From Escherichia phage ManiWeber_Bas99: a DNA stretch of 64,000 nucleotides. The position numbers and the translations under genes are program-made. The stretch lies in sequence record PQ850618.1; one strand, 5' to 3'. This document shows, piece after piece, positions 26,101 to 40,208 of the stretch. Positions within the stretch are counted from its first letter, which is position 1; each line of letters begins with the position of its first letter. Below the pieces are notes generated by a model, which had not been told where the DNA came from, ran no database searches, and saw nothing but the letters and a program-made list of their open reading frames with translations.

Positions 26101-26724
26101 TTATTGTCCTGTAACTTCTCTGATCACACGGTCTTCAAGTTCCAGCTTCTTTACCATTTTGCAGGAGTGCTCATAAGCCTGATCAGTCGATTTGATGAAT
26201 GTGCCGTTGTACATGACACCTTTTCGGTCTTTAATGTCTTCGTAGGCAGCTTGCGCACAGTCGGATAAGCGAAGGCCATAATCATGAGCTACGCCGGAAA
26301 GGTAATCGACTGCGGCCATGATGGTCACGTCAATATCCATGGTCTGATTCTTAGCGATTGCATCACCAAGTCGTCCAAGGGTCTTTGCCAGGCGAAGGAT
26401 AAATGAATGAGGGTGAGCACCTTTATCAGCGCAACCGCCGCCATTAATGTTTTCGATTTCAGTACCGTTTTGCGCTGCCAGGATGGTCAACACAACAAGG
26501 CAATCGCCGATGTCATCCTTAATTGCGGCCTGCAAGTCACAGATGGCCTGCTCTGTATATCCAATTTCAGGGTCAAAGAACACAAGGTCATGTAATTGAT
26601 CAACGTGGTCTGTCAACTCCCCAAACTCGCTAATAAGCTTCGGGTATTGGTCCTTAAGGTCGCAGCCTTGGATGATGTTACGGTCAGAAGCCCACTGGCG
26701 AATGTTTGCATAAATCTGGTTCAT
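26101..26724 (-). CDS. MazG-like nucleoside triphosphate pyrophosphohydrolase
   Basis: 207 aa; EFGELTDH and DIGDCLVVLTILA motifs typical of all-alpha MazG-family NTP-PPases. Confidence 0.5.
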   Translation of the reverse strand: MNQIYANIRQWASDRNIIQGCDLKDQYPKLISEFGELTDHVDQLHDLVFFDPEIGYTEQAICDLQAAIKDDIGDCLVVLTILAAQNGTEIENINGGGCADKGAHPHSFILRLAKTLGRLGDAIAKNQTMDIDVTIMAAVDYLSGVAHDYGLRLSDCAQAAYEDIKDRKGVMYNGTFIKSTDQAYEHSCKMVKKLELEDRVIREVTGQ

Positions 26725-30633: not shown

Positions 30634-31052
30634 GACAATTCCTCTAAATACTTGATGATGTGATGGATGGACCCGCTCGCGGCGACCATAGCCAGAATCT
30701 CATGCTTAGTATATTCTTTTAATCGCAATGAAGGGTGAACTAAATAATAAGCCTTTTCAGAGTCCACCTTCAGCAACACGAATGACGAGAATTTCCAATC
30801 ACTCCAAGAAGTCAAAAAGCTTTGTTGACCTTTCTCAAATGCGCTCTTGAAAGGAAGAGTGGTGGCCCTTGCAGGCCACGATTCAAAGAACTTCATTTCA
30901 AGCCAAAAGCCGCGCCCTTTCCGGTTGGTGCCGATTACGTCCGGCACACCATCACCCGTCATTGATTCGATTCTTTGAAGCTTCAAGATTGATTCTGAAT
31001 GCTTCTTCAAAGGCACGAATATGTATTTCTGTTCACGGTTATTTGTTGCCAT
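30630..31052 (-). CDS. PD-(D/E)xK nuclease (VRR-NUC-like)
   Basis: Internal start MATNN...; motif GVPDVIG...GRGFWLEMK fits PD...ExK. Confidence 0.5.
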   Translation of the reverse strand: MATNNREQKYIFVPLKKHSESILKLQRIESMTGDGVPDVIGTNRKGRGFWLEMKFFESWPARATTLPFKSAFEKGQQSFLTSWSDWKFSSFVLLKVDSEKAYYLVHPSLRLKEYTKHEILAMVAASGSIHHIIKYLEELS

Positions 31053-33936
31053 CTGGATACACCTGTTTGATAACGTCGACGATGAACATGTCAATGCCTT
31101 CAAGTTTGCGGCCTTTCATCAGGAAGAATGCGCCGTTCCCGACGTTCTCTGCAATGTATTTCCCGTATTTCTGGAACTTCTCTGGACGAATCCTGAAGCG
31201 CATTGGCGAGTCGGTCGAATCGTCCTTGCACATAAGGTCAATGAACTGAGTCTCAAGCTTGTTTCCATACTGGTCAAACTCTGCGTAGCGGCCATCAGCT
31301 TGAAGACCCTTTTTAAGTTTGCCGTGCTTTGTATAAATGCCGCGCTCAAGACGTTTACGGATGCGTGTCGCTTCGTTCTCGTCAGCCAGCACTTTCTTGG
31401 TCAACTTGCCGATCACTATTGCACGCTCGTCATCGCCGACTTCCTTCATCTGGCGTATTGAAGCACCGGAAGTAACGCCAATCAGATAGGGGTCATTATA
31501 TGCCCATCCGAACTTTGTGTGCATCTCTGTAAGGTCGCCGTATTTGACTTCAGCATTGGCCAATGCATCCTTTTGCTTTTGCGTTAAGGTTCCGGCTTCA
31601 CGTGCTTCGATATACTTCATTGCCTTCACCATGCCATATCCTTTTGCGTTCATGATGCCGCCGATTAGCTTTCCGTTAGCGATGGTCCAGTTCATTGAAG
31701 AGTGGTCAGGGTCGATTGGCACATAATCCACGCCTTCCTTCGCAAGTTCACGTAATATCGCAATCGTCTGGTCTTCGTCCTTAGCAGCGCGTAAGCAGGC
31801 AGCGGCAAATTCCAACGGGTAGTGTCGCTTAAGCCACAAGGTCCAGTAGGTCACGACCGCGTATGATACGGAGTGTGACTTGTTAAAGCCCCATGACCCG
31901 AACGTCGCCATCGCTTGCCAAAGCTTTCTTGCATCCGCTTCCGGTACGCCGTTATTTATTGCTCCTGCAACGAAGTCTTCGCCAAGCTTGTTAAAGTATT
32001 CCTCACCCTTACGACCTGACATCGCCTTACGTACAGCGGATGTTTTCGCCCAGTCAAATGAACCAATCTCTTTAACCACGGCCATGATTTGCTCTTGGTA
32101 AAGAAACACGCCGTAAGTCTCTTTTAAGTACGGCTCAAGCTGCGGCACGTCGTACTCAATCGGCGCACGTCCTGCCGCGCGTTCAATGTATTTCTGGGCC
32201 ATACCGGACGACAACGGGCCAGGTCGGCCAAGTGCTGTCAGGTTATCGATTTTGTTAAAGTTATCAACGTGCACAAAGTTGGTTACTGAGCGTACAGCGT
32301 CGCCTTCAAACTGGAAGATGCCTGACATCTTGTTTTCGTTAAGGATGTCAAGGACGCTTTGGTCATCAAGCTTGATTCCGTACAGCGTTTCAGCATCTAT
32401 CACGCCAGTATCAGAAATGATTCCGAGAGTACGAAGGCCCAGCGCATCAAGCTTCAAAAGGTTTAGGTATTCGCTGTCAGGCTTATCGATTTGCGCAATA
32501 CCTTCTGCAGTTACAGTACAGTAATCAGAGATTGGGTCATTACACACAATGATTCCCGCTGCGTGAACACCTGTGTGAGACGGGTGAATCTCAAGGTCAC
32601 CCATGCAACGCGCGGCGTCAGGATATTTCGCCACAAACTCTTGGCCCGTGGTCGTTGTTGCAAAGGTATCCTCCAGGCCGTGACCATAACGGGCGTCACC
32701 GGATGAGTATTCAAGCAGTGCGTTTTTAATGTTGGCCGTTTCGTGGTATCCAATGTTGAACTTCTTACCAACCTGCGCCATTACTGAGTTGGCCTTAAGC
32801 GTGTTGATGTTGCCAAGCTTTGCAACGTTCATTTCGCCATATTTCTCTTTAAGATAATCAAACACCATGTAGCGTTTGGTATCTTCAAAGTCGATGTCGA
32901 TGTCAGGAAGGTCGGCGCGGCTTACGTCGATGAATCGGGCAAACAGCAGCTTATACGGGATTGGGTCCACTTCCGTGATGCCGAGGCAATAGCAAACAAG
33001 TGAACCAGCCGATGAGCCGCGCGCAGGACCGACGAGCATTTTTGTTTTTGCGAATCGCACAAGGTCCGCTACCACCAGAAAGTATGAGTCGAAATCTTTC
33101 AGCTGAATCTGGTGAATCTCTTCGTTGAAGCGGTCCTCATATTCCTGAGTCCATTCTTTGATGTGACCTGCTTTTAGACGGTACTCCATCCCCTCACGAG
33201 CAAGCTTTACCATGTCACCAGCAAGGTGAATAATCGGTGCCTTACGCAATTTCAAGTCAAGTCCGACTATGCCGTTTGCTATGTCAACAGCATTGGCCGT
33301 TGCCTGATCAAGTTCATCTTCAGTCAAGATGCCTTTAAGCTGTTTGCGCAAATCTTCCACGTCAACGATGCAATGCGGCTTGACCGTGTCGCGCACTTCC
33401 CAAGCATAAGCAAAGTCAACGTGCTCAGGTGAAGGCATGTGGTTGTATCCGGTTAAAACCAGCGGCCTTCCACCGCTACGATGAGCCAATGCCTGGCGCT
33501 TTGCCAAAAGGAACGATGATGGGTTGACGTCTATATAGTCGTAGTCCTCTGGCCGCAGCAACTCCACGGCACCGCCACAGAATTTAACGACGCCATCGAG
33601 CGCACCGAACTCTGCACGGGTAAGCCCACCGCGCTGCGTTGAAAGTGTTGTAGCGTTGTAAAAAGATTTTAAGTCAAGGGCCAATATCCAAGCCTTCGGT
33701 TTGAATCCCTTTTTCGGGTCCGCATCAGGGTCGATGATTGGAATCTCCATCCCAAACATAGGCTTAATATCATTTTTCTGGCATTCCTTTTCCCAGCGAA
33801 CGTGACCCCATGTGTTGTTATCAACTAATGCCGCGACTTCGCAGCCCAACTCTTTGAGCCGTGCTATAATTTCAGGATGCCGTCCATAAACTTCTTTGAA
33901 CGTGTAACCGCTGCGAACTCTCAATTGTGGAAACAT
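31039..33936 (-). CDS. dnaE: DNA polymerase III alpha-subunit homolog (DnaE-type)
   Basis: 965 aa; NKSHSVSYAVVTYWTLWLKRHYPLEFAAACL matches the conserved DnaE palm motif; N-terminal PHP region lacks the usual His pair. Confidence 0.85.
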   Translation of the reverse strand: MFPQLRVRSGYTFKEVYGRHPEIIARLKELGCEVAALVDNNTWGHVRWEKECQKNDIKPMFGMEIPIIDPDADPKKGFKPKAWILALDLKSFYNATTLSTQRGGLTRAEFGALDGVVKFCGGAVELLRPEDYDYIDVNPSSFLLAKRQALAHRSGGRPLVLTGYNHMPSPEHVDFAYAWEVRDTVKPHCIVDVEDLRKQLKGILTEDELDQATANAVDIANGIVGLDLKLRKAPIIHLAGDMVKLAREGMEYRLKAGHIKEWTQEYEDRFNEEIHQIQLKDFDSYFLVVADLVRFAKTKMLVGPARGSSAGSLVCYCLGITEVDPIPYKLLFARFIDVSRADLPDIDIDFEDTKRYMVFDYLKEKYGEMNVAKLGNINTLKANSVMAQVGKKFNIGYHETANIKNALLEYSSGDARYGHGLEDTFATTTTGQEFVAKYPDAARCMGDLEIHPSHTGVHAAGIIVCNDPISDYCTVTAEGIAQIDKPDSEYLNLLKLDALGLRTLGIISDTGVIDAETLYGIKLDDQSVLDILNENKMSGIFQFEGDAVRSVTNFVHVDNFNKIDNLTALGRPGPLSSGMAQKYIERAAGRAPIEYDVPQLEPYLKETYGVFLYQEQIMAVVKEIGSFDWAKTSAVRKAMSGRKGEEYFNKLGEDFVAGAINNGVPEADARKLWQAMATFGSWGFNKSHSVSYAVVTYWTLWLKRHYPLEFAAACLRAAKDEDQTIAILRELAKEGVDYVPIDPDHSSMNWTIANGKLIGGIMNAKGYGMVKAMKYIEAREAGTLTQKQKDALANAEVKYGDLTEMHTKFGWAYNDPYLIGVTSGASIRQMKEVGDDERAIVIGKLTKKVLADENEATRIRKRLERGIYTKHGKLKKGLQADGRYAEFDQYGNKLETQFIDLMCKDDSTDSPMRFRIRPEKFQKYGKYIAENVGNGAFFLMKGRKLEGIDMFIVDVIKQVYPDGNK

Positions 33937-34478
33937 TATTTACTCCAGATGTCATATACGCCAATTTGTTGGCAGACTTTGTGCAGTAATATTACGTCGT
34001 CTAATGCACGGTGTTTCTGTTCATATTTTCCGAAATATAATTCATACAGCTCTTGAAGCTTAACTCTTCGGCCAAAAATAGGCAAGGTTTGCTCAACTGT
34101 ACAAATGTTTATTTCTGGAAAATTAACATCATCAAGCGTAAGTCCTTCGCGCTGTAGTGCATAATCAAGAATGTTTTTATCGAACGCATGGTTGTGCGCG
34201 ATAGTGGCATCCGTCTTCTTGAAGATTTCTTTTAGCTGCGGGACAAAATTGATGAATGGTGGATTGCACTCAAGGTCTTCATTTGTTAATCCGGTAATCT
34301 TTGTGATAATTTCTTCAATCACGATTTCAGGATTAATTATGAATTCAAACGTTTCAAGAATCTCTTTGCCGTCTGTCAACAGACCTGCAAATTCAATAGG
34401 GCGCGGCTGCATCCCAAGCGGCGCTTTCGGGTGCACGGTCAATCCGGTTGTTTCGAAGTCATAAGGGAGAAATAACAC
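33936..34478 (-). CDS. DEDDh 3'-5' exonuclease (DnaQ/epsilon-like proofreading subunit)
   Basis: 180 aa; Exo I YDFETTG, Exo II HNHAFDKNIL, Exo III HRALDDV; 1-nt overlap with the polymerase gene. Confidence 0.8.
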   Translation of the reverse strand: MLFLPYDFETTGLTVHPKAPLGMQPRPIEFAGLLTDGKEILETFEFIINPEIVIEEIITKITGLTNEDLECNPPFINFVPQLKEIFKKTDATIAHNHAFDKNILDYALQREGLTLDDVNFPEINICTVEQTLPIFGRRVKLQELYELYFGKYEQKHRALDDVILLHKVCQQIGVYDIWSK

Positions 34479-34491
34479 ATTAGCCTCCTAC

Positions 34492-34522
34492 AAAAAGGCC
34501 GCCCATTAGGACGGCCACAGAT
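34492..34522 (-). terminator. Hairpin with T-run between the VOC gene and the exonuclease gene (minus strand)
   Basis: Minus-strand reading GGCCGTCCTAATGGGCGGCCTTTTTGTAGGAGG: stem GGCCG/CGGCC then T5, followed by AGGAGG RBS. Confidence 0.4.
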
Positions 34523-34532
34523 TCACGATTTG

Positions 34533-35084
34533 TTATACAGTGTACGGAGTACCGTCTTGATTCAACCGCACGATGAATTTAAGGTCGACACCGATGATTT
34601 CACGAGTATCAAAGATTACATAGTTGTAACGACGCTGACCAGCAATGTTTGGGTTGGTGTGAGAGTCGGTCACAACTTCCTGCGCAACCTGAATGCCTTC
34701 TTCTTTAAAGAACTTGCGCCATTCAGCAAGTTCAGCGGCAGTCACGTGCATACCAAGATGGCTAACCTGATTGTCGTGCGCATCGATGTATTCGATGTTT
34801 TCGTGAATCCAGTTGCAACCTTTTGTATAGTCAAGAATTTCAAGCTCAAGAGGCTTACCAGCGCCGCCATCGGTGCCGTTGCCAGCCTGATAGTTGAAGC
34901 GCAAGTCAGCTTCGTTGGTGCAATCGCCGCGCTGACCCTTAAAGACATCAGCTTCAAATACGCGACCAGTAGCAACAACGTGATCATGGAACCATTCTGT
35001 CAGGCCGATTTTAGCCAGGAAATTCTGTGCGCGCTGAGCACCTGGAATTGACAGGGCGATTTGTTCAATTTTAAAATGTGGCAT
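34533..35084 (-). CDS. VOC (glyoxalase/bleomycin-resistance/dioxygenase) family protein
   Basis: 183 aa; N-terminal MPHFKIEQIALSIPG...F.AKIGL... and ...HLGMHV... resemble VOC beta-alpha-beta-beta-beta modules. Confidence 0.4.
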   Translation of the reverse strand: MPHFKIEQIALSIPGAQRAQNFLAKIGLTEWFHDHVVATGRVFEADVFKGQRGDCTNEADLRFNYQAGNGTDGGAGKPLELEILDYTKGCNWIHENIEYIDAHDNQVSHLGMHVTAAELAEWRKFFKEEGIQVAQEVVTDSHTNPNIAGQRRYNYVIFDTREIIGVDLKFIVRLNQDGTPYTV

Positions 35085-35104
35085 TTTGTTTCCTTAATTA
35101 AATA

Positions 35105-35275
35105 TTATTGATTAATTACTGTGTTGCCTTCGATGGAATAAGTCTCAATGGAACCGACGCGCTCGTGGTTAATCTTTGCGTTTTCGATTCTTATTACTTC
35201 AAATCCAACACCTTCTTGATCAATCTTCACTTCTGCTACGTCGCCAATCACTTCTACAACAACTTTGATAGTCAT
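35105..35275 (-). CDS. Small ORF (about 56 aa) not in the ORF track
   Basis: ATG three bases after the SDR stop (TAA-ATC-ATG); translation MTIKVVVEVIGDVAEVKIDQEGVGFEVIRIENAKINHERVGSIETYSIEGNTVINQ. Confidence 0.3.
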   Translation of the reverse strand: MTIKVVVEVIGDVAEVKIDQEGVGFEVIRIENAKINHERVGSIETYSIEGNTVINQ

Positions 35276-35278
35276 GAT

Positions 35279-35962
35279 TTATTTCCCAAATGGAATATCA
35301 GTACCAGACATAAAGCGCCATGCGCCCGTAATTAAGATATGGCGAATGAAGTCAGCAATTACTTGCGGCTCAGTCTCCAATCCATTCATCAGCGCCTTTT
35401 TCTGGTATTCAGCAGCATACTCAGGAGTCCAGCCGCGAGTCGCGCAAACAGCATCTTCAATCTGTTTGGACATGCCAGTACCACGTAGCTTATTAGGACT
35501 AATAGAAAATACCGTGATCCCGTATTTAGGCGTAAGCTCGTGAGCCATCTGCTTGCTAATCATGAGCGCAGCAGCCTTGGAAGCATTATAACACAAGCTG
35601 GATGTCATAGGAATATGCGCAGCGTTGGAAACGATATTGATCACAAAACCTTTGTTGTCGATAAGACTTTTCAGCGCGGCTTGAGTCGTGTTGACGAAAG
35701 AGAAGGCGTTGGTGTGCATAACGCGATTGAACTCTTCGTAGTTAACATCTTCAAACCAGTTGTTGGAGTTGACGCCAGCACAGTTGATCAAGCCTTCTAC
35801 ATCATATGGGCTTAAAATTTCTTTCATCTGTTTCGCGTCGCGGACGTCATATCCGTATGCTGAATCGATTCCAAGCACGTTATGACCGTAAGCGCCAAGG
35901 GTGTCAAAAATAGATTTACCAAGACCGGAATTGGAACCTGTTACAACAATTACTTTTTTCAT
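35279..35962 (-). CDS. Short-chain dehydrogenase/reductase (SDR)
   Basis: 227 aa; cofactor motif VTGSNSGLGKS, catalytic YNASK. Confidence 0.75.
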   Translation of the reverse strand: MKKVIVVTGSNSGLGKSIFDTLGAYGHNVLGIDSAYGYDVRDAKQMKEILSPYDVEGLINCAGVNSNNWFEDVNYEEFNRVMHTNAFSFVNTTQAALKSLIDNKGFVINIVSNAAHIPMTSSLCYNASKAAALMISKQMAHELTPKYGITVFSISPNKLRGTGMSKQIEDAVCATRGWTPEYAAEYQKKALMNGLETEPQVIADFIRHILITGAWRFMSGTDIPFGK

Positions 35963-36027
35963 TTATTTATCCTTTTTGGACTTCGTTTCAATGAGATAAA
36001 TATAACTCATCGAAACGCACAAGTAAA

Positions 36028-36900
36028 CTATTTATTGAAATTAATATTGTGGGTGTTGACGAGACGTTCACACATGGCGCTGTAAACACCATCGTCGTGT
36101 ATAGAGTCTTCGTGCTTCAGGCCGCTGATTGCAAAGCGTGTAAGCTTGACAATCTTAAGCTCGAACAGATGCCACATGTGGTAGTCTTCCGGCGTTTTCA
36201 ACGTTACGCCATTAGGGAAAAGCACCTGCATAACCTGGCCAACCATCACGGCATTATCGCCATAGACAGCGTTGCGCTCACGGAAGGTTGCTGCCATTGC
36301 ATCAAGAATATCGGCGGCAGTTGCCGGAGATTGTTCAACTTCCACAGCCTTAGTCTCTTCTTGCCCTGTTGCGCTTGGATCAATTGCTAATTGTTGCACC
36401 ACTTCACCTGCCTTGCAAAGATTAAATGTAAAAGCGATTTTATTTTGAGCAACGGAATTATAATACAATGCTTCATCTTGCATCCGCGCGAGCACGTCTT
36501 GTCGGTCGTCGAATACATTGATGATTCGATAATCGCCGTGCCGCAATGCGTGCGATAGCCATGCAGATTTCATAATAGTTGATGGACGTTTGTCGCCATA
36601 GTCTCTCATCTTGATTGTAAATTCATCAAAAGGAAAAACATTGTCCAGACGTTCAAAAGTCACTTGTCTGTATTTTTCTGGCCTTGCAGTCCAATATTCA
36701 ACCGCCTCACCGCGAAGAGATGCCGACTCTACTGCTGATGCAATGTGAGGATAGAACTGATCATAACCAATACCGCTGTGATAGTCATCATAGTCTGACA
36801 ACGGACCTGCCACCTTGATGCGGTCTAAGCGCCAACGGTCATCAAACAGCGTTCCGTCAAGGTCGAATACGTTTAATATTTGGTTATTTTTAATACTCAT
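36028..36900 (-). CDS. HAD-superfamily phosphatase-like protein with C-terminal all-alpha domain
   Basis: 290 aa; HAD motif I FDLDGTL near the N-terminus, later VFDDRQDV; C-terminal half helical, possibly MazG-like. Confidence 0.45.
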   Translation of the reverse strand: MSIKNNQILNVFDLDGTLFDDRWRLDRIKVAGPLSDYDDYHSGIGYDQFYPHIASAVESASLRGEAVEYWTARPEKYRQVTFERLDNVFPFDEFTIKMRDYGDKRPSTIMKSAWLSHALRHGDYRIINVFDDRQDVLARMQDEALYYNSVAQNKIAFTFNLCKAGEVVQQLAIDPSATGQEETKAVEVEQSPATAADILDAMAATFRERNAVYGDNAVMVGQVMQVLFPNGVTLKTPEDYHMWHLFELKIVKLTRFAISGLKHEDSIHDDGVYSAMCERLVNTHNINFNK

Positions 36901-37706
36901 CCCTTTGACACTCCATCTTTAGCAACTGGATTGTTTGTGATTGGCGCGGCATCCCAAAACTGGATGCGCAACTCTTCTTGCTGTGCCGTGGTATCCATCC
37001 AATCACGATACCACGGGCAATGGGCTTTGCCATGACGAGGAAACGCGCATTTACCCATACCGATGCATTGCGGCTGTAGTAAAGGATTAGCCCATGGGTG
37101 CACCTTGAGGACTTCCGCAACCATTGCGCGAAATACTTCTTGATACTCACCTTGTGTGCGCGTGCACAAGCGGTTTGACGCCATCTGCTGCAGCGTGCGC
37201 AAGTTGAACTTTGCCATGATATGCGTTTGCATATTAGAAGGCAACACGGCACGTGCATCCTGAATCTCTGCGCCAGCCGCGCGAAGTTCTTGATACAAAG
37301 CATCGATAGTCGCCATTGCATCATCCCATTTCTCTGCCAATGAGTGATGTCTTATGTGCACATCATCAAATGCATTTTCATCATTGCAGTCAGAAGGGTG
37401 CTCGAATGCCTTCGGACGAATCGCATCAAATGCAGAAGATTCCTGAGCGCGGCTGGTGCGTTCTTGGTATGCACCTGTGCGTGTGCGTACCATCTGATGA
37501 GTCATATTCTTTGATACAGCGGTGATGTCAAAGATATAGTCCACAAAGTCAAAAGGCGACTTGATGGTGTCAAGCATGTAGCGCCAATGCTCTTGCTTCT
37601 CTGATTCCGTCATCTCAGAGACAGGCTTACCAGTCATGCGCGTGTTCTTTGTTTCCAGCAAAAGGTCAAGTGCATCTTGGGTGTATCGAATTAATTCAAC
37701 TTTCAT
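36897..37706 (-). CDS. ThyX-like (flavin-dependent thymidylate synthase homolog), divergent
   Basis: 269 aa; ...SPFDFVDYIFDITAVSKNMTHQMVRTRTGAYQERTSRAQ... aligns with the ThyX RHR...S.RY block but reads RTR; ...AVLPSNMQTHIMAKFNLRTLQQM... matches the second ThyX block. Confidence 0.55.
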   Translation of the reverse strand: MKVELIRYTQDALDLLLETKNTRMTGKPVSEMTESEKQEHWRYMLDTIKSPFDFVDYIFDITAVSKNMTHQMVRTRTGAYQERTSRAQESSAFDAIRPKAFEHPSDCNDENAFDDVHIRHHSLAEKWDDAMATIDALYQELRAAGAEIQDARAVLPSNMQTHIMAKFNLRTLQQMASNRLCTRTQGEYQEVFRAMVAEVLKVHPWANPLLQPQCIGMGKCAFPRHGKAHCPWYRDWMDTTAQQEELRIQFWDAAPITNNPVAKDGVSKG

Positions 37707-37719
37707 TTTAATTATCCTA

Positions 37720-38166
37720 TTAACGGTAATTTACTAGTTGCTGATCACCAGAGAAGGTGCAATGATAAACGAATTGTGCGTTATAAAGCAACTGAAAACT
37801 TTTCTTTGGTTCATTATTAGAACTCATTGATGTAAAGATTTCTGCACCAGAACGATTTTCACCAATCAGGTTGATAAAGCCGCCAGTTGAACGAGGCTGA
37901 ACGAAAGTGAAACGTTGCATCCACGGAGTGCGGTTGGCACCTTTCCCTGTGAATCCTTGAATCTGAATATTCAGGCCTTCTTGCTCGTTCACACCGATGT
38001 AAGTGGTAATTGTTGCGCCAGTCGTTGCTGCGGTCTTGCCGTCCATCGCTTCGCAATCGTAAACAGCGATTGAATCTGAAGTACGGACAGCGGCTTCAGT
38101 CGCTTCCATATACATGGTTCCGAGAATAGCAGTTGCGGCAAGCGCGATTCCAGTGATTCGTTTCAT
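37720..38166 (-). CDS. Secreted protein
   Basis: 148 aa; signal peptide MKRITGIALAATAILGTMYMEATEAA. Confidence 0.4.
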   Translation of the reverse strand: MKRITGIALAATAILGTMYMEATEAAVRTSDSIAVYDCEAMDGKTAATTGATITTYIGVNEQEGLNIQIQGFTGKGANRTPWMQRFTFVQPRSTGGFINLIGENRSGAEIFTSMSSNNEPKKSFQLLYNAQFVYHCTFSGDQQLVNYR

Positions 38167-38231
38167 TTTCGTTTCCTCTATGAGTTCTGCTTCAATGATT
38201 AAAGTATACGCCCATTGAAGCAGAAAGCAAA

Positions 38232-39227
38232 TTATTTATTAGCAATATAAGCAAATTTTTGATAGTTATTTGCTTTGATGAGTTTTTCAACTTCAACAAG
38301 GTCATGAGCAACGTCATCAAGCAAAATGTTTCGCCAAGTAGCGAATCGACCGACACTAAATACGTTCAAATCCATGGTCAGCTGTAGGAGTAGAGCGTGT
38401 CGCAAGTCTTTCGGAATGTCGACAATCTTGCCATACTTCTGGTCGACCTTTTCAACTTCTTCGAGAGCGATGTCACTCCATGAGAGGCCAAAGGCCGTCA
38501 ACACTTCGTCGACTTCTGCGCGCAGCTTGATGTCACGGTAACGAGTAATGCCGCCAGCGGCTTCAACTGCGGCTTCACTTACGCTAACCAAAGGAATTGT
38601 TTCAATGATCAGCGTGTCACCAGTGATTGATGCGCGGTAAGTTCTGACGGAGTAGTCAGGAAAGTAAATGGTTTGATACAGTTCACACTTGCGTTTAATC
38701 TTAAAGCGGTAAACACGAATGTTTGCCTTGTCGAATGAGAAATCAATCTTTTGATCAATCCCAGCAAGCTTCATTATGACTGGCAGCGGCGATGTGTTGA
38801 TGATTGGCGTCTCGCTATAGCCGCAAAGAGTATCAACAGGAGTATTAAAGAATATGCGGTCACCCAGTTTGTCGACAAGCTGATCATAAAAGTCATCAGG
38901 CGCAATATAACGCGTTGCAGTTTTAAGCTTCATGATTGAACGGCTGCCAAACTGATTGGTGACCTTCATGGAATACATATTGGCAAGGTTGATTGGGCAA
39001 TGGTCGTGGTAGTAGTTGCCGCGAAAATACACAGCCTTGTCAACTGTCACGGCTTTAAAAGGGATTCCGGTAATACGGCTTACTTCTTCGCTGCGAAAGC
39101 GTAGCAATGCCTTGTGCTGTGGCGCTCGCTCCCCTGCTTCGTACACAATAGAGTTCGGGAAGTGACACGCGGTAATAAGTCCTGCCAAACCGCCGCCGAT
39201 AATCATTACAGGTTGTTTCATGTTCAT
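38232..39227 (-). CDS. FAD/NAD(P)-binding oxidoreductase (possibly Glf-like)
   Basis: 331 aa; N-terminal Rossmann motif VMIIGGGLAGL; C-terminal ...GRFATWRNILLDDV... resembles UDP-galactopyranose mutase-type flavoenzymes. Confidence 0.5.
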   Translation of the reverse strand: MNMKQPVMIIGGGLAGLITACHFPNSIVYEAGERAPQHKALLRFRSEEVSRITGIPFKAVTVDKAVYFRGNYYHDHCPINLANMYSMKVTNQFGSRSIMKLKTATRYIAPDDFYDQLVDKLGDRIFFNTPVDTLCGYSETPIINTSPLPVIMKLAGIDQKIDFSFDKANIRVYRFKIKRKCELYQTIYFPDYSVRTYRASITGDTLIIETIPLVSVSEAAVEAAGGITRYRDIKLRAEVDEVLTAFGLSWSDIALEEVEKVDQKYGKIVDIPKDLRHALLLQLTMDLNVFSVGRFATWRNILLDDVAHDLVEVEKLIKANNYQKFAYIANK

Positions 39228-39311
39228 TTGTCCTTTGTGGGTGATATGAGAAGTATAATAGCTAAATTATTTTACAGCAACAAGTCATTTCTATTTAGTA
39301 CAGACGAAAAA

Positions 39312-39338
39312 AAGACCCACAACAAGTGTGGGTCAATT
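39312..39338 (-). terminator. Rho-independent terminator (minus strand)
   Basis: Minus-strand reading GACCCACACTTGTTGTGGGTCTTTTTTTC: 8-bp stem plus T7. Confidence 0.6.
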
Positions 39339-39362: not shown

Positions 39363-40208
39363 TTATTCCGCTTGATCACCGTCTTCAGCATCGTCGTTGG
39401 ATTCAACATCGACAAACTCGATGTGACCCATCTCTTCCAGCTTGCTCAGGTAGGAGCGAACGGAAGCGCCAAACAGTTGATCTTTAACTTTTTCGCCCAG
39501 CTCATCGATAGACTGTGCCACACCAACTTCGCCTTCTTTGATCGCCGCCAGAACGCGTCCACGGGTGGAATGCTCTTGCGGCTGGCTCAGGCCGTTGCCA
39601 GTGTAGATGAAGTGAGTGGCTTTTGCACGACGCTGACCGTTTGCCTTTTTAGCAGCCTTACGTTCTGCGATGGCTTTGCGACGTTCTTCAGCTTCTTTCT
39701 TACGCTGTTCTTTCTGCTGTTCTGCAGCTTCTTTAGCCGCAATCTTAGCAGCTTCACGCTCTGCCTTGCGTTTCGCTTTAGCTTCTTCTTTGGCCTTTTC
39801 TTTTTCGGCCTTCGCTGCAGCACGGGCTTGATCACGCTCTGCTTTCTTGGCCGCAGCCTGCTCAGCTTTCAGGCGCTTGGCTTCTTCTTTAGCCTTTGCC
39901 TTTTCGATTTCTTTTGCTGCTTTAGCGGCTTCACGCTCTGCTTTCTTAGCAGCAGCCTTTTCTGCACGCTCTTTAGCTTTCTTAGCTGCTTCTTCAGCAC
40001 GCTTCTGAGCCTTCTCATCAGCAGCCTGCTTGCGTTTCAACGCAGCTTCTTCACGCTTGGCTTGTTTTTCCTGCTCACGCTTCTGGCGTTTTTCTTCGGC
40101 TTCTTTCTTTTTAGCCAGGCGTTTTTCTTCAGCCACGCGACGACGTTCTGCTGCGGCTGCTTGTTTTTCTTCTTTAGATAATACTTTGATTGCTTCGGCC
40201 ATATTCAC
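39363..40208 (-). CDS. K/E/A-rich charged helical protein with small C-terminal globular domain
   Basis: 281 aa; about 190 aa of (A/E/K/R)-only repeats consistent with a single long alpha helix or TolA/histone-H1-like tail. Confidence 0.5.
   Translation of the reverse strand: MNMAEAIKVLSKEEKQAAAAERRRVAEEKRLAKKKEAEEKRQKREQEKQAKREEAALKRKQAADEKAQKRAEEAAKKAKERAEKAAAKKAEREAAKAAKEIEKAKAKEEAKRLKAEQAAAKKAERDQARAAAKAEKEKAKEEAKAKRKAEREAAKIAAKEAAEQQKEQRKKEAEERRKAIAERKAAKKANGQRRAKATHFIYTGNGLSQPQEHSTRGRVLAAIKEGEVGVAQSIDELGEKVKDQLFGASVRSYLSKLEEMGHIEFVDVESNDDAEDGDQAE

What the first reader, a model, noticed from the sequence alone, without database searches (positions are those of the whole stretch)
34533..39227. 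Cluster of nucleotide/redox enzymes inside the replication operon: candidate DNA or nucleotide modification pathway
Seven consecutive minus-strand genes sit between the proofreading exonuclease and the charged helical protein: a VOC-family protein, a 56-aa ORF, an SDR oxidoreductase, a HAD-type phosphatase with an extra helical domain, a divergent ThyX homolog, a secreted protein and an FAD-binding Glf-like oxidoreductase. This is not a standard phage nucleotide-salvage set. A flavin-dependent thymidylate-synthase homolog combined with a phosphatase and two oxidoreductases, co-transcribed with the polymerase, is the kind of context in which non-canonical or hypermodified DNA bases are made. 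The specific chemistry cannot be deduced from the sequence.
Basis: inference. Interest (0 to 1): 0.65.

Follow-up and report, generated by a model that had tools for sequence, protein, structure and literature searches.

The report
Candidate thymidine hypermodification gene module
A block of five enzymes beside the DNA polymerase of this E. coli phage (a Wifcevirus) is the best candidate for the unidentified pathway that decorates thymine in the DNA of this phage family, which includes the Pseudomonas therapy phages, and helps it escape restriction enzymes.

Summary
The seven minus-strand ORFs are at the stated coordinates. The window is a Wifcevirus (Lindbergviridae), 93-97% identical to WFC, FEC19 and Bas98.

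Five of the seven form a conserved module: a flavoprotein distantly like UDP-galactopyranose mutase and protoporphyrinogen oxidase, a divergent ThyX, a PNKP-type HAD phosphatase fused to a DUF6378-like helical domain, a classical SDR and a VOC-like protein. The 56-aa and 148-aa ORFs are genus-specific fillers.

In 45 of 46 viral contigs with enough sequence the order is flavoprotein, ThyX, HAD/DUF6378, DnaQ, DnaE. SDR and VOC come or go together.

Pbunavirus relatives carry the three-gene core. Their DNA holds sugar-derived hypermodified thymidine at TG, and the genes are unknown. [quoted passage not shown]

No homologue of the M6 modification proteins (5-HMUDK, aGPT-Pplase, ThyA-type hydroxymethylase) was found. 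All 100 GATC sites abut a TG, against 48% without one in lambda. None of the 19 purged 6-bp palindromes contains TG.

I read this as a new route to thymidine hypermodification. The evidence is circumstantial and the chemistry is inferred.

The parts
38232..39227 (-). 331-aa flavoprotein of a compact phage family. Its fold is nearest UDP-galactopyranose mutase and protoporphyrinogen oxidase. It is the first gene of the conserved module.
37720..38166 (-). 148-aa ORF with a signal-peptide-like N-terminus. Found only in Wifceviruses by tblastn, so a genus-specific insert rather than part of the conserved module.
   Evidence: No family hit. tblastn matches only Wifcevirus loci. The slot between the flavoprotein gene and thyX ranges from 39 to 2870 nt.
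36897..37706 (-). Divergent ThyX with a cysteine-rich C-terminal extension.
   Evidence: Thy1 1.2e-29; TIGR02170 80.3 bits, below the 87.9 cut-off. The motif RHRxxSxxxxSxRY reads RTRTGAYQERTSRA. H53 becomes F, S88 becomes T, Y91 becomes A. R78, R80, R90, R147, R174, Q75 and E86 are kept. Four Cys are conserved in the group.
36028..36900 (-). HAD phosphatase of the PNKP 3'-phosphatase type (residues about 1-175) fused to a four-helix DUF6378-like domain (about 195-290). There is no kinase domain.
35279..35962 (-). Classical short-chain dehydrogenase/reductase.
   Evidence: adh_short 2.6e-31. Best PDB sequence hits are FabG-type reductases at 1.6e-12. Read from the sequence: TGxxxGxG and YxxxK are present. 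Co-occurs with the VOC gene: both present in 35 loci, neither in 10, VOC alone in 1, of 46.
35105..35275 (-). 56-aa ORF in a variable spot. Not part of the conserved module.
   Evidence: No family hit. Present in Bas98 and FEC19-like loci, not found in ECML-117 and WFC loci. Bas98 has an extra 71-aa ORF here.
34533..35084 (-). 183-aa VOC-like (glyoxalase/dioxygenase-fold) protein. It is highly conserved: 52-70% identity in other genera of the family, against 41-53% for the flavoprotein.
   Evidence: Glyoxalase_4 E 0.09 for this protein; 15 of 38 homologues match, best 6.7e-6. Invariant E80, E82, H109, H113, H142. No PDB sequence hit.
39314..39334 (-). Terminator-like hairpin followed by U7, upstream of the module between the charged-protein gene and the flavoprotein gene.
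   Evidence: -16.6 kcal/mol, z -3.8. The LMA2 record annotates a terminator at the same position.
39266..39293 (-). Promoter-like site (TAGAAA-16-AATAAT) just upstream of the flavoprotein gene.
   Evidence: It matches 9 of 12 positions and is a consensus match only. The number of such sites in the region is no higher than in shuffles.
34497..34516 (-). Terminator-like hairpin followed by U5, downstream of the module between the VOC gene and dnaQ.
   Evidence: -18.6 kcal/mol, z -3.55.
31039..34478 (-). DnaQ-like exonuclease (33936-34478) and DnaE-like Pol III alpha (31039-33936). The module is physically tied to these replicase genes in nearly all relatives.
   Evidence: RNase_T 9.6e-22. The order flavoprotein, ThyX, HAD, DnaQ, DnaE holds in 45 of 46 IMG/VR loci.
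26101..26724 (-). 207-aa protein annotated 'MazG-like pyrophosphatase' in Bas98, on the same strand further downstream. A possible accessory that edits the nucleotide pool.
   Evidence: The Bas98_0036 annotation. No Pfam hit here. MazG-like genes recur inside the module slot of relatives.

Best explanation
The block 39227-34533 encodes a conserved five-enzyme module that hypermodifies thymine in the phage's own DNA. It most likely acts in a TG context and adds a sugar-derived polyol. It does so by a route that uses none of the known thymidine-hypermodification enzymes.

Proposed working, with all steps inferred unless marked otherwise:
1. The ThyX variant keeps the arginines that bind the dUMP phosphate. 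It builds the C5 one-carbon unit at the nucleotide level, giving dTMP or a 5-methylene/5-hydroxymethyl derivative.
2. The UGM/PPO-like flavoprotein does the key activation. Either it oxidises the thymine methyl to an electrophilic exocyclic methylene, or it carries a sugar as a flavin-N5 adduct. A sugar phosphate becomes joined to the C5 methyl carbon.
3. The capless PNKP-type HAD phosphatase removes the phosphate left on the polynucleotide-bound adduct. The role of its DUF6378 domain is unknown.
4. The SDR reduces a sugar carbonyl and the VOC-fold enzyme isomerises or epimerises it. This tailors the moiety in Wifcevirus, Kylevirus, Myosmarvirus and Carpasinavirus. Pbunavirus lacks both enzymes.

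The modified TG then shields overlapping or abutting restriction, Dam or MutH sites.

Shown here: gene content, folds, conservation and co-occurrence, absence of homologues of the M6 modification proteins, and the TG-linked site signature.
Shown by others: the modification in Pbunavirus and the restriction resistance of Wifcevirus.
Inferred: that these genes make the modification, and every chemical step above.
For: Identity: the window is a Wifcevirus, 93-97% nt identity to WFC, FEC19, ECML-117 and Bas98. The genus sits in Lindbergviridae with Pbunavirus.

Chemistry in relatives: Pbunavirus F8 and 14-1 DNA resists enzymes whose sites contain TG. It holds novel nucleosides of 362 and 390 u that replace about a quarter of T. 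These are described as a tetrose sugar-alcohol derivative and a cyclised aldopentose derivative. The authors name no genes (PMC12191111). F8 carries the flavoprotein, ThyX and HAD-DUF6378 in the same order.

Module conservation: of 46 IMG/VR loci with at least 6 kb downstream of the flavoprotein gene, ThyX follows in 46. HAD/DUF6378, DnaQ and DnaE follow in order in 45. SDR and VOC are both present in 35 and both absent in 10. Twenty-four loci lack the Lindbergviridae-type helicase upstream. The trio also lies within 6 kb in a 207-kb Rhizobium phage and in a 40.6-kb Ralstonia phage. A Microbacterium phage has a Rossmann oxidoreductase, a phosphatase, SDR, VOC, a DUF6378 protein and DnaE in series, with a GT2 and a ThyX-like gene nearby. 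The flavoprotein and the DUF6378 domain have near-identical distributions in phage records, 361 and 363.

Tailoring slot: relatives insert a carbamoyltransferase, a SAM methyltransferase, a second HAD_PNKP, a T4-endoV-like DNA glycosylase, DUF4406 or MazG-like genes. This is the combinatorial pattern described for hypermodification clusters (PMC8989533).

No known route: phmmer with M6 aGPT-Pplase2, 5-HMUDK, the ThyA-type hydroxymethylase, the PLP enzyme and the rSAM enzyme finds nothing in 746 six-frame ORFs, even at E<=10.

Sequence signature:
- All 100 GATC sites abut a TG on at least one strand, where 47% would be expected to have none.
- The rule holds in relatives from enterobacterial and Aeromonas hosts (0-3% without TG). 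It does not hold in relatives from Pseudomonas, Xylella, Ralstonia, Rhizobium or Microbacterium hosts, nor in lambda (48%).
- 19 of 48 TG-free 6-bp palindromes are absent or single, against 0 of 16 TG-containing ones (p 0.0015).
- 15 of 17 EcoRI sites are TG-flanked (p 0.002). Only 22 of 82 EcoP1I sites are, which is about chance. This matches the resistance pattern.
- EcoRI sites are not depleted (17 against 18 expected), so site avoidance does not explain EcoRI resistance.

Fold hint: the HAD domain is closest to phosphatases that act on polynucleotides.
Against: - No nucleoside analysis of any Wifcevirus exists in the literature I could search.
- No genetic or biochemical link ties any of these genes to the Pbunavirus modification.
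- ThyX is common in phages as a plain thymidylate synthase. This one keeps the dUMP-binding arginines, so it may simply make dTMP.
- The collinearity with DnaQ and DnaE could be inherited synteny of a replication module rather than proof of a shared pathway.
- F8 DNA is cut by EcoRI, whereas Wifceviruses resist EcoRI in vivo, so the two modifications or their contexts cannot be identical. Two EcoRI sites in the window lack a TG flank.
- No glycosyltransferase or kinase is present to explain sugar attachment by known chemistry.
- The TG signature shows a TG-linked selective effect, not its chemical cause.
Confidence: 0.6

Rival explanations
1. This is an ordinary nucleotide-supply and DNA-repair set. 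ThyX makes dTMP. The HAD domain is a PNKP-like 3'-phosphatase that heals DNA or RNA ends for the phage ligase. The SDR, VOC and flavoprotein are auxiliary redox genes, for example pterin or flavin recycling for ThyX. Restriction resistance and the TG signature come from something else, such as injected anti-restriction proteins.
For: The ThyX keeps R78, R80, R90, R147 and R174, and matches Thy1 at 1.2e-29. The HAD domain's best structural matches are PNKP phosphatases, and an ATP-dependent ligase lies in the same strand block. The genes sit among replication genes and are annotated this way in GenBank.
Against: - There is no kinase domain, so this is not a PNKP.
- A five-gene set with a VOC enzyme and a private flavoprotein family has no counterpart in known salvage pathways.
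- SDR and VOC are gained and lost as a pair, and the slot attracts carbamoyl-, methyl- and glycosyl-type tailoring enzymes.
- ThyX produces tetrahydrofolate and reduces its own flavin with NADPH, so it needs no helper reductase. This rests on established knowledge of ThyX.
- Relatives with the core trio do have hypermodified T and no other candidate genes.
- This reading does not explain why GATC is tolerated only next to TG.
Confidence: 0.2
2. The module acts wholly on the nucleotide pool, before replication. ThyX and the flavoprotein build a 5-substituted dUMP. The phosphatase, SDR and VOC finish the side chain on the mononucleotide. The co-inherited DnaE/DnaQ replicase incorporates the modified dNTP. 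Nothing is done on DNA.
For: ThyX keeps its residues for binding a mononucleotide. The module is almost always fused to DnaQ-DnaE. MazG-like and DUF4406 genes, which act on free nucleotides, recur in the slot.
Against: Specificity for a TG context in F8, and the TG signature here, are hard to obtain by incorporation from a pool. The HAD domain is of the capless type that acts on polynucleotides. T4-endoV-like DNA glycosylases, which handle bases within DNA, sit inside the module in 8 loci.
Confidence: 0.12
3. The module makes or alters something other than DNA, such as a small molecule, a cofactor, RNA, or a host envelope sugar.
For: UGM-like, SDR, HAD and VOC folds are all common in sugar and secondary metabolism. 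A signal-peptide-like protein lies inside the block.
Against: The signal-peptide ORF is genus-specific. The module is conserved across phages of Proteobacteria and, in part, an actinobacterial phage, whose envelopes share no common sugar chemistry. It is always linked to ThyX and the replicase. This reading does not explain the TG signature or the Pbunavirus chemistry.
Confidence: 0.08

Closest known systems
Hypermodified thymidine of Pbunavirus F8 and 14-1 (Yee et al. 2025 preprint, PMC12191111)
   Same: Same virus family (Lindbergviridae). The same flavoprotein, ThyX and HAD-DUF6378 genes lie in the same order beside DnaQ-DnaE. The TG context reported for F8 matches the TG-linked site signature found here.
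   Different: Pbunaviruses lack the SDR and VOC genes. F8 DNA is cut by EcoRI, whereas Wifceviruses resist EcoRI in vivo. The GATC-next-to-TG rule is absent in Pbunavirus. The Pbunavirus study named no genes, and Wifcevirus DNA has not been analysed.
5-hmdU-based thymidine hypermodification (M6, ViI, PaMx11, phiW-14, SP10; PMC5889632, PMC8989533)
   Same: Partial replacement of T by a bulky C5-methyl substituent. Finishing steps occur on DNA after replication. The gene cluster carries combinatorial tailoring enzymes, including a flavoenzyme that acts on DNA-bound groups. The function is to evade restriction.
   Different: None of the defining enzymes was found: no ThyA-family dUMP hydroxymethylase, no 5-HMUDK P-loop kinase, no aGPT-Pplase. 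Here the thymidylate-synthase homologue is ThyX, and the appended group in relatives is sugar-derived rather than amino-acid- or polyamine-derived.
Glycosylated 5-hydroxycytosine pathways of RB69, DLP3 and Pootjesviridae (PMC13326640)
   Same: A thymidylate-synthase-superfamily enzyme repurposed with flavin chemistry. A HAD phosphatase trims a sugar phosphate. In RL38J1 a phage UDP-galactopyranose mutase serves DNA glycosylation.
Flavin-N5-iminium one-carbon transfer enzymes (ThyX, TrmFO/RlmFO, MnmEG) and UGM flavin-sugar adduct chemistry
   Same: A ThyX-fold enzyme and a GR2-type flavoprotein are encoded side by side. Both enzyme classes use reduced flavin N5 as a covalent carrier, so an exocyclic-methylene or flavin-sugar intermediate captured at uracil C5 is chemically plausible (mechanisms summarised in PMC8989533).
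   Different: No activity has been measured. The ThyX motif is altered and a four-cysteine extension is added. The flavoprotein matches no Pfam family.
T4 / Clostridium PNKP 3'-phosphatase domain
   Different: There is no polynucleotide kinase domain. It is fused instead to a DUF6378-like four-helix domain. The GenBank name 'polynucleotide kinase/phosphorylase' is misleading.

Membership tests
Canonical thymidine hypermodification pathway (5-hmdU route) | ThyA-family dUMP hydroxymethylase | tested here: not met
   phmmer of M6 gp58 against 746 six-frame ORFs of at least 40 aa: no hit at E<=10. The only thymidylate-synthase homologue is ThyX.
Canonical thymidine hypermodification pathway (5-hmdU route) | 5-hmdU DNA kinase (5-HMUDK, P-loop) | tested here: not met
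   phmmer of M6 gp54: no hit at E<=10.
Canonical thymidine hypermodification pathway (5-hmdU route) | aGPT-Pplase / amino-acid:DNA transferase | tested here: not met
   phmmer of M6 gp51: no hit at E<=10. Sensitivity is that of a single-sequence search, and the window covers about 94% of a genome of about 68 kb.
Canonical thymidine hypermodification pathway (5-hmdU route) | Non-canonical thymidine derivative in virion DNA | not testable with these tools
   Shown only for the Pbunavirus relatives F8 and 14-1. For this genus there is only indirect evidence: restriction resistance and the TG site signature.
ThyX, flavin-dependent thymidylate synthase | Thy1 domain above Pfam's gathering score | tested here: met
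   103.9 bits against 24.8.
ThyX, flavin-dependent thymidylate synthase | NCBIfam equivalog TIGR02170 cut-off | tested here: not met
   80.3 bits against a cut-off of 87.9.
ThyX, flavin-dependent thymidylate synthase | ThyX motif RHRxxSxxxxSxR(Y) and His53 (T. maritima numbering) | tested here: not met
   The motif reads RTRTGAYQERTSRA.
ThyX, flavin-dependent thymidylate synthase | Arginines that bind dUMP (R78, R80, R90, R147, R174) | tested here: met
   All are aligned and conserved.
ThyX, flavin-dependent thymidylate synthase | dUMP-to-dTMP activity with CH2-THF and NADPH | not testable with these tools
   Requires an enzyme assay.
UDP-galactopyranose mutase (Glf/UGM) | Sequence-family match (Pfam GLF / NAD_binding_8) | tested here: not met
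   No Pfam or NCBIfam hit at E<=0.1. No PDB sequence hit.
UDP-galactopyranose mutase (Glf/UGM) | UGM fold | tested here: inconclusive
UDP-galactopyranose mutase (Glf/UGM) | Dinucleotide-binding GxGxxG with an acidic residue at the end of beta-2 | tested here: met
   G11, G13 and G16 are invariant and E30 is near-invariant.
UDP-galactopyranose mutase (Glf/UGM) | Active-site residues that bind UDP and the sugar | not tested
   No structure-based residue mapping was possible. From memory, the C-terminal GRFATWRN resembles UGM's GRLxxYxY, with W and N in place of the two tyrosines.
PNKP (polynucleotide kinase-phosphatase) | HAD 3'-phosphatase domain with DxDxT | tested here: met
PNKP (polynucleotide kinase-phosphatase) | P-loop polynucleotide 5'-kinase domain | tested here: not met
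   No kinase domain by Pfam. The rest of the protein is a four-helix DUF6378-like domain.
VOC (glyoxalase/bleomycin-resistance/dioxygenase) superfamily | Family match and paired beta-alpha-beta-beta-beta modules with metal ligands | tested here: inconclusive
   The query scores 13.5 bits against a cut-off of 27. 15 of 38 homologues match Glyoxalase_4, best 6.7e-6. His and Glu residues are conserved. No structure was predicted, and there is no PDB sequence hit.
Classical SDR | adh_short domain, TGxxxGxG, catalytic YxxxK | tested here: met
   109 bits. The motifs were read from the sequence. No NCBIfam model reaches its cut-off, so the substrate is unknown.
MazG-like all-alpha NTP pyrophosphohydrolase (considered for the DUF6378-like domain) | Detectable homology to MazG-family proteins | tested here: not met
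   hhalign of the domain profile against two MazG-like phage proteins gave probabilities of 1% and 0.1%. Pfam gives only a weak DUF6378 match.

The most novel reading that the evidence does not exclude
The flavoprotein, ThyX and HAD-DUF6378 trio is a route to DNA hypermodification that needs no kinase and no glycosyltransferase. Two flavoenzymes, one ThyX-like and one UGM/PPO-like, join a phosphosugar to the C5 methyl carbon of thymine or uracil at TG, through an exocyclic-methylene or flavin-N5-sugar intermediate. A polynucleotide-type phosphatase then trims it. The masses reported for F8 (362 u) and 14-1 (390 u) fit either an ether-linked tetritol or pentose on 5-hmdU, or a C-C-linked 1-deoxypentitol or C-glycosyl hexose on dU. 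This is my arithmetic. The second reading would be an unprecedented C-glycoside-type DNA base.
Probability: 0.3. Interest if true: 0.9.

Novelty: new variant of a known kind. Interest (0 to 1): 0.75.

Why it matters
Pbunaviruses are among the Pseudomonas phages most used in therapy. Their DNA hypermodification was reported only in 2025, and no genes were assigned. [quoted passage not shown]

This module gives both open questions the same short list of candidate genes: three core and two accessory. These can be deleted or expressed directly.

If confirmed, it would matter in four ways.
- It would add a new enzymatic logic for modifying DNA bases, built on ThyX and a private flavoprotein family of about 1000 sequence clusters, without kinase or transferase.
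- It would explain host-range limits set by END-type nucleases, which sense modified DNA.
- It would give a sequence marker for predicting modified genomes in viromes.
- It would offer new tools for making restriction-proof DNA.

The rule that GATC is tolerated only next to TG is a testable, sequence-only predictor of the modified motif.

Tried and rejected
- **Site avoidance as the cause of EcoRI resistance.** Rejected: 17 GAATTC sites against about 18 expected.
- **The known thymidine-hypermodification enzymes.** Not found by phmmer with the M6 proteins.
- **Sequence searches of the PDB.** Uninformative for the flavoprotein, the HAD protein and the VOC-like protein, alone or as profiles.
- **Comparing F8 and 14-1 to find what sets their different adduct masses.** The flavoprotein is 97% identical, ThyX 94%, HAD-DUF6378 80%, and the small ORFs 78-82%. 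No clear determinant emerged.
- **The Microbacterium phage 'oxidoreductase' g55 as a homologue of the flavoprotein.** Only the GxGxxG segment aligns, at hhalign probability 48%, so I treat it as analogous at best.
- **The RHph_Y65 annotation 'phosphoheptose isomerase' for the DUF6378-bearing protein.** Pfam shows a weak HAD match, not a SIS domain.
- **Genomic context for a distant family representative (P0500).** The contigs are too short to be useful.
- **A single-dinucleotide rule for which palindromes are purged.** TG/CA content separates them significantly, but AA/TT and CC/GG content also correlate. The rule is incomplete.
- **Literature searches.** No paper assigns genes to the Pbunavirus or Wifcevirus modification.

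Full report
**1. What is there**

The window is a Wifcevirus, an E. coli/Shigella myovirus. The 4.7-kb region is 93-97% identical at the nucleotide level to WFC, WFH, FEC19, ECML-117 and the BASEL isolates Bas98-101. ICTV places Wifcevirus with Pbunavirus, Kylevirus, Myosmarvirus and Carpasinavirus in the family Lindbergviridae.

They lie between a DnaQ-like exonuclease with a DnaE-like Pol III alpha on one side and a charged 281-aa protein with a Dda-like helicase on the other.

Two strong terminator-like hairpins, each followed by a U-run, bracket the block exactly. One is at 39334-39314 (-16.6 kcal/mol, z -3.8). The other is at 34516-34497 (-18.6 kcal/mol, z -3.55). The Pbunavirus LMA2 record annotates a terminator at the position of the first. 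The block may therefore be its own transcription unit rather than simply co-transcribed with the polymerase.

**2. The proteins**

- **ThyX homologue.** It matches Thy1 (1.2e-29) but falls below NCBIfam's equivalog cut-off. Aligned with the T. maritima and M. tuberculosis enzymes, it keeps the dUMP-binding arginines. It changes the ThyX motif to RTRTGAYQERTSRA, with H53 to F, S88 to T and Y91 to A. It adds a C-terminal extension of about 60 residues with four cysteines conserved across the myovirus relatives.
- **227-aa protein.** A classical SDR.
- **183-aa protein.** VOC-like on modest evidence: 15 of 38 homologues match Glyoxalase_4. It is more strongly conserved than its neighbours.
- **56-aa and 148-aa ORFs.** These were found only within the genus.

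**3. A conserved module**

The order flavoprotein, ThyX, HAD/DUF6378, SDR, VOC, DnaQ, DnaE recurs in:
- Pantoea phage Kyle;
- Serratia phage Hera;
- Xylella phage MATE2;
- Aeromonas phage Gekk3-15.

Pbunaviruses and Salmonella phage PCSE1 have the same order without SDR and VOC.

I scanned IMG/VR with the flavoprotein profile and examined the 46 loci that have at least 6 kb downstream.
- ThyX follows in 46 of 46, with gaps of 39-2870 nt.
- HAD/DUF6378, DnaQ and DnaE follow in that order in 45 of 46.
- SDR and VOC are both present in 35, both absent in 10, and VOC alone in 1.
- 24 loci lack the family-typical helicase upstream.

The core trio also lies within 6 kb in the 207-kb Rhizobium phage RHph_Y65 and in a 40.6-kb Ralstonia phage. 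A Microbacterium siphovirus has a Rossmann oxidoreductase, a phosphatase, SDR, VOC, a DUF6378 protein and DnaE in series, with a GT2 glycosyltransferase and a ThyX-like gene nearby.

In phage records the flavoprotein (361 records) and the DUF6378 domain (363) have almost the same genus profile.

Relatives insert other enzymes into the slot:
- a NodU/TobZ-type carbamoyltransferase;
- a SAM methyltransferase;
- a second HAD_PNKP;
- a T4-endoV-like DNA glycosylase (8 loci);
- DUF4406;
- MazG-like genes.

This combinatorial pattern is what has been described for hypermodification clusters (PMC8989533).

**4. Link to experiments by others**

[quoted passage not shown] The exception is EcoP1_I (PMC11990801).

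A 2025 preprint shows that Pbunavirus F8 DNA resists enzymes whose sites contain TG. F8 and 14-1 DNA contain new nucleosides of 362 and 390 u that replace about a quarter of T. They are read as a tetrose sugar-alcohol derivative and a cyclised aldopentose derivative. The authors stress that these phages lack known modification genes (PMC12191111). F8 and 14-1 carry the core trio.

I found no paper that assigns genes.

In the window, phmmer with the M6 aGPT-Pplase2, 5-HMUDK, ThyA-type hydroxymethylase, PLP enzyme and rSAM enzyme finds nothing, even at E<=10.

**5. A sequence signature pointing to TG**

EcoRI sites are not depleted: 17 against about 18 expected. Palindrome use, however, is extreme.
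- 17 six-bp palindromes are absent and 2 occur once. None of these contains TG/CA. That is 0 of 16 TG-containing palindromes against 19 of 48 TG-free ones (Fisher p 0.0015).
- GATC occurs 100 times against 253 expected. Every copy has a T before it or an A after it, so a TG abuts the site on at least one strand: 50 on both strands, 50 on one, 0 on neither. About 47% would be expected on neither.
- The rule holds in relatives from enterobacterial and Aeromonas hosts: Bas98 1 of 56, Kyle 0 of 28, Hera 2 of 68, Gekk3-15 1 of 32, PCSE1 0 of 27 without TG.
- It does not hold in relatives from Pseudomonas, Xylella, Ralstonia, Rhizobium or Microbacterium hosts, nor in lambda (56 of 116, 48%).
- 15 of 17 EcoRI sites (p 0.002), all 4 EcoRV sites and all 10 GACGTC sites are TG-flanked.
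- Only 22 of 82 EcoP1I sites are TG-flanked, about chance.
- From general knowledge, the EcoKI site AAC(N6)GTGC contains TG.

This pattern matches the reported resistance profile. It argues that something TG-linked shields neighbouring sites.

**6. Most likely working**

I commit to a thymidine hypermodification made by this module. It is finished on DNA in a TG context.
- The ThyX variant supplies the C5 one-carbon unit at the nucleotide level.
- The flavoprotein performs the activating step and joins a phosphosugar to the C5 methyl carbon.
- The polynucleotide-type HAD phosphatase removes the phosphate.
- The SDR and VOC tailor the sugar in the lineages that have them.

I put the pathway assignment at about 0.6. 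Each individual chemical step is inference and much less certain.

By my arithmetic, the masses 362 and 390 u fit two readings equally well. One is an ether-linked tetritol or pentose on 5-hmdU. The other is a C-C-linked 1-deoxypentitol or C-glycosyl hexose on dU.

**7. Rivals and caveats**

The main rival is an ordinary nucleotide-supply and end-healing set (0.2). A purely pre-replicative pool pathway (0.12) and a non-DNA target (0.08) remain possible.

Weak points:
- There is no chemistry on Wifcevirus DNA.
- No genetics links genes to adduct.
- Inherited synteny could inflate the co-occurrence figures, and the 46 loci are not independent.
- F8 is cut by EcoRI, so the contexts must differ between genera.
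- The VOC and DUF6378 assignments are weak.
Their central parts agree with the PDB alignments.

**8. Verdict**

This is a new variant of a known kind of system, thymidine hypermodification, with enzymology that may be new. Interest 0.75.

Noticed in passing
whole window (1-64000): Every one of the 100 GATC sites has a TG abutting it on at least one strand: 50 on both strands, 50 on one, 0 on neither, where 47% would be expected on neither. TGATCA occurs 50 times, while AGATCT, CGATCG and GGATCC occur 0 times. The same rule holds in relatives from enterobacterial and Aeromonas hosts. It does not hold in relatives from hosts outside those groups, nor in lambda.
   Followed up: yes
whole window (1-64000): 17 of the 64 six-bp palindromes are completely absent and 2 occur once (expected 5-20 each). 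None of them contains TG/CA (Fisher p 0.0015). AAGCTT (59 against 18-25), TGATCA (50) and GTCGAC (30) are 2-3 times over-represented with no flanking consensus. CTAG is low (36 against 136).
   Followed up: partly
whole window; EcoP1I sites AGACC/GGTCT: 82 EcoP1I sites, of which only 22 are TG-flanked (about chance). By contrast, 15 of 17 EcoRI sites and 4 of 4 EcoRV sites are TG-flanked. This fits the published phenotype: resistant to EcoRI and EcoRV, sensitive to EcoP1_I.
   Followed up: partly
window 39314-39334 and 34497-34516 (minus strand): Two strong terminator-like hairpins with U-runs bracket the seven-gene block exactly. A promoter-like site lies at 39293-39266. The block may be a separate transcription unit.
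   Followed up: partly
window 36897-37100 (C-terminal part of the ThyX gene): The ThyX of this phage group has a C-terminal extension with four conserved cysteines (RLC; QxxC-x5-C; a fourth 10 residues further on, or about 48 in Pbunavirus). It is absent from T. maritima and M. tuberculosis ThyX and from the Rhizobium phage ThyX. It may be a Zn or Fe-S site.
   Followed up: partly
L012/L013 (ENA metagenome contigs), about 10023-11699 in L012: A 558-aa carbamoyltransferase (Carbam_trans_N and Carbam_trans_C) sits between the flavoprotein gene and thyX in a relative that lacks SDR and VOC.
   Followed up: no
IMG/VR loci L047, L049, L053-L056, L078, L092 (between thyX and the HAD gene): A T4-endonuclease-V-like pyrimidine-dimer DNA glycosylase (Pyr_excise 3.6e-14) is embedded in the module in 8 loci. 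The Microbacterium phage has a weak Pyr_excise match just upstream of its oxidoreductase.
   Followed up: partly
L008 (Microbacterium phage RikSengupta) 6779-10094: An actinobacterial siphovirus has a Rossmann oxidoreductase, a phosphatase, SDR, VOC, a DUF6378 protein and DnaE in series, plus a GT2 and a ThyX-like gene. This is a distant version of the same module.
   Followed up: partly
window 26101-26724 (minus strand): A 207-aa protein annotated 'MazG-like pyrophosphatase' in Bas98 lies in the same strand block near the ligase gene. Pfam finds nothing, but the sequence has EExGE and DxxGD-type motifs.
   Followed up: no
window 36028-36900; public records of relatives: GenBank and PHROG call this protein 'polynucleotide kinase/phosphorylase'. 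It has a PNKP-type phosphatase domain but no kinase domain. In RHph_Y65 the homologue is annotated 'phosphoheptose isomerase', while Pfam shows only a weak HAD match there.
   Followed up: yes
window 35084-35279; L001 12573-12958: The spot between the VOC and SDR genes varies within the genus. The 56-aa ORF was not found in ECML-117 and WFC-type genomes, and Bas98 carries an additional 71-aa ORF.
   Followed up: no
window 39363-40208 (minus strand): The charged Lys/Glu/Ala-rich 281-aa protein has a conserved C-terminal domain of about 90 residues. It always precedes the flavoprotein gene in Lindbergviridae, and records call it 'structural' or 'TolA-like'. Its role was not examined.
   Followed up: no
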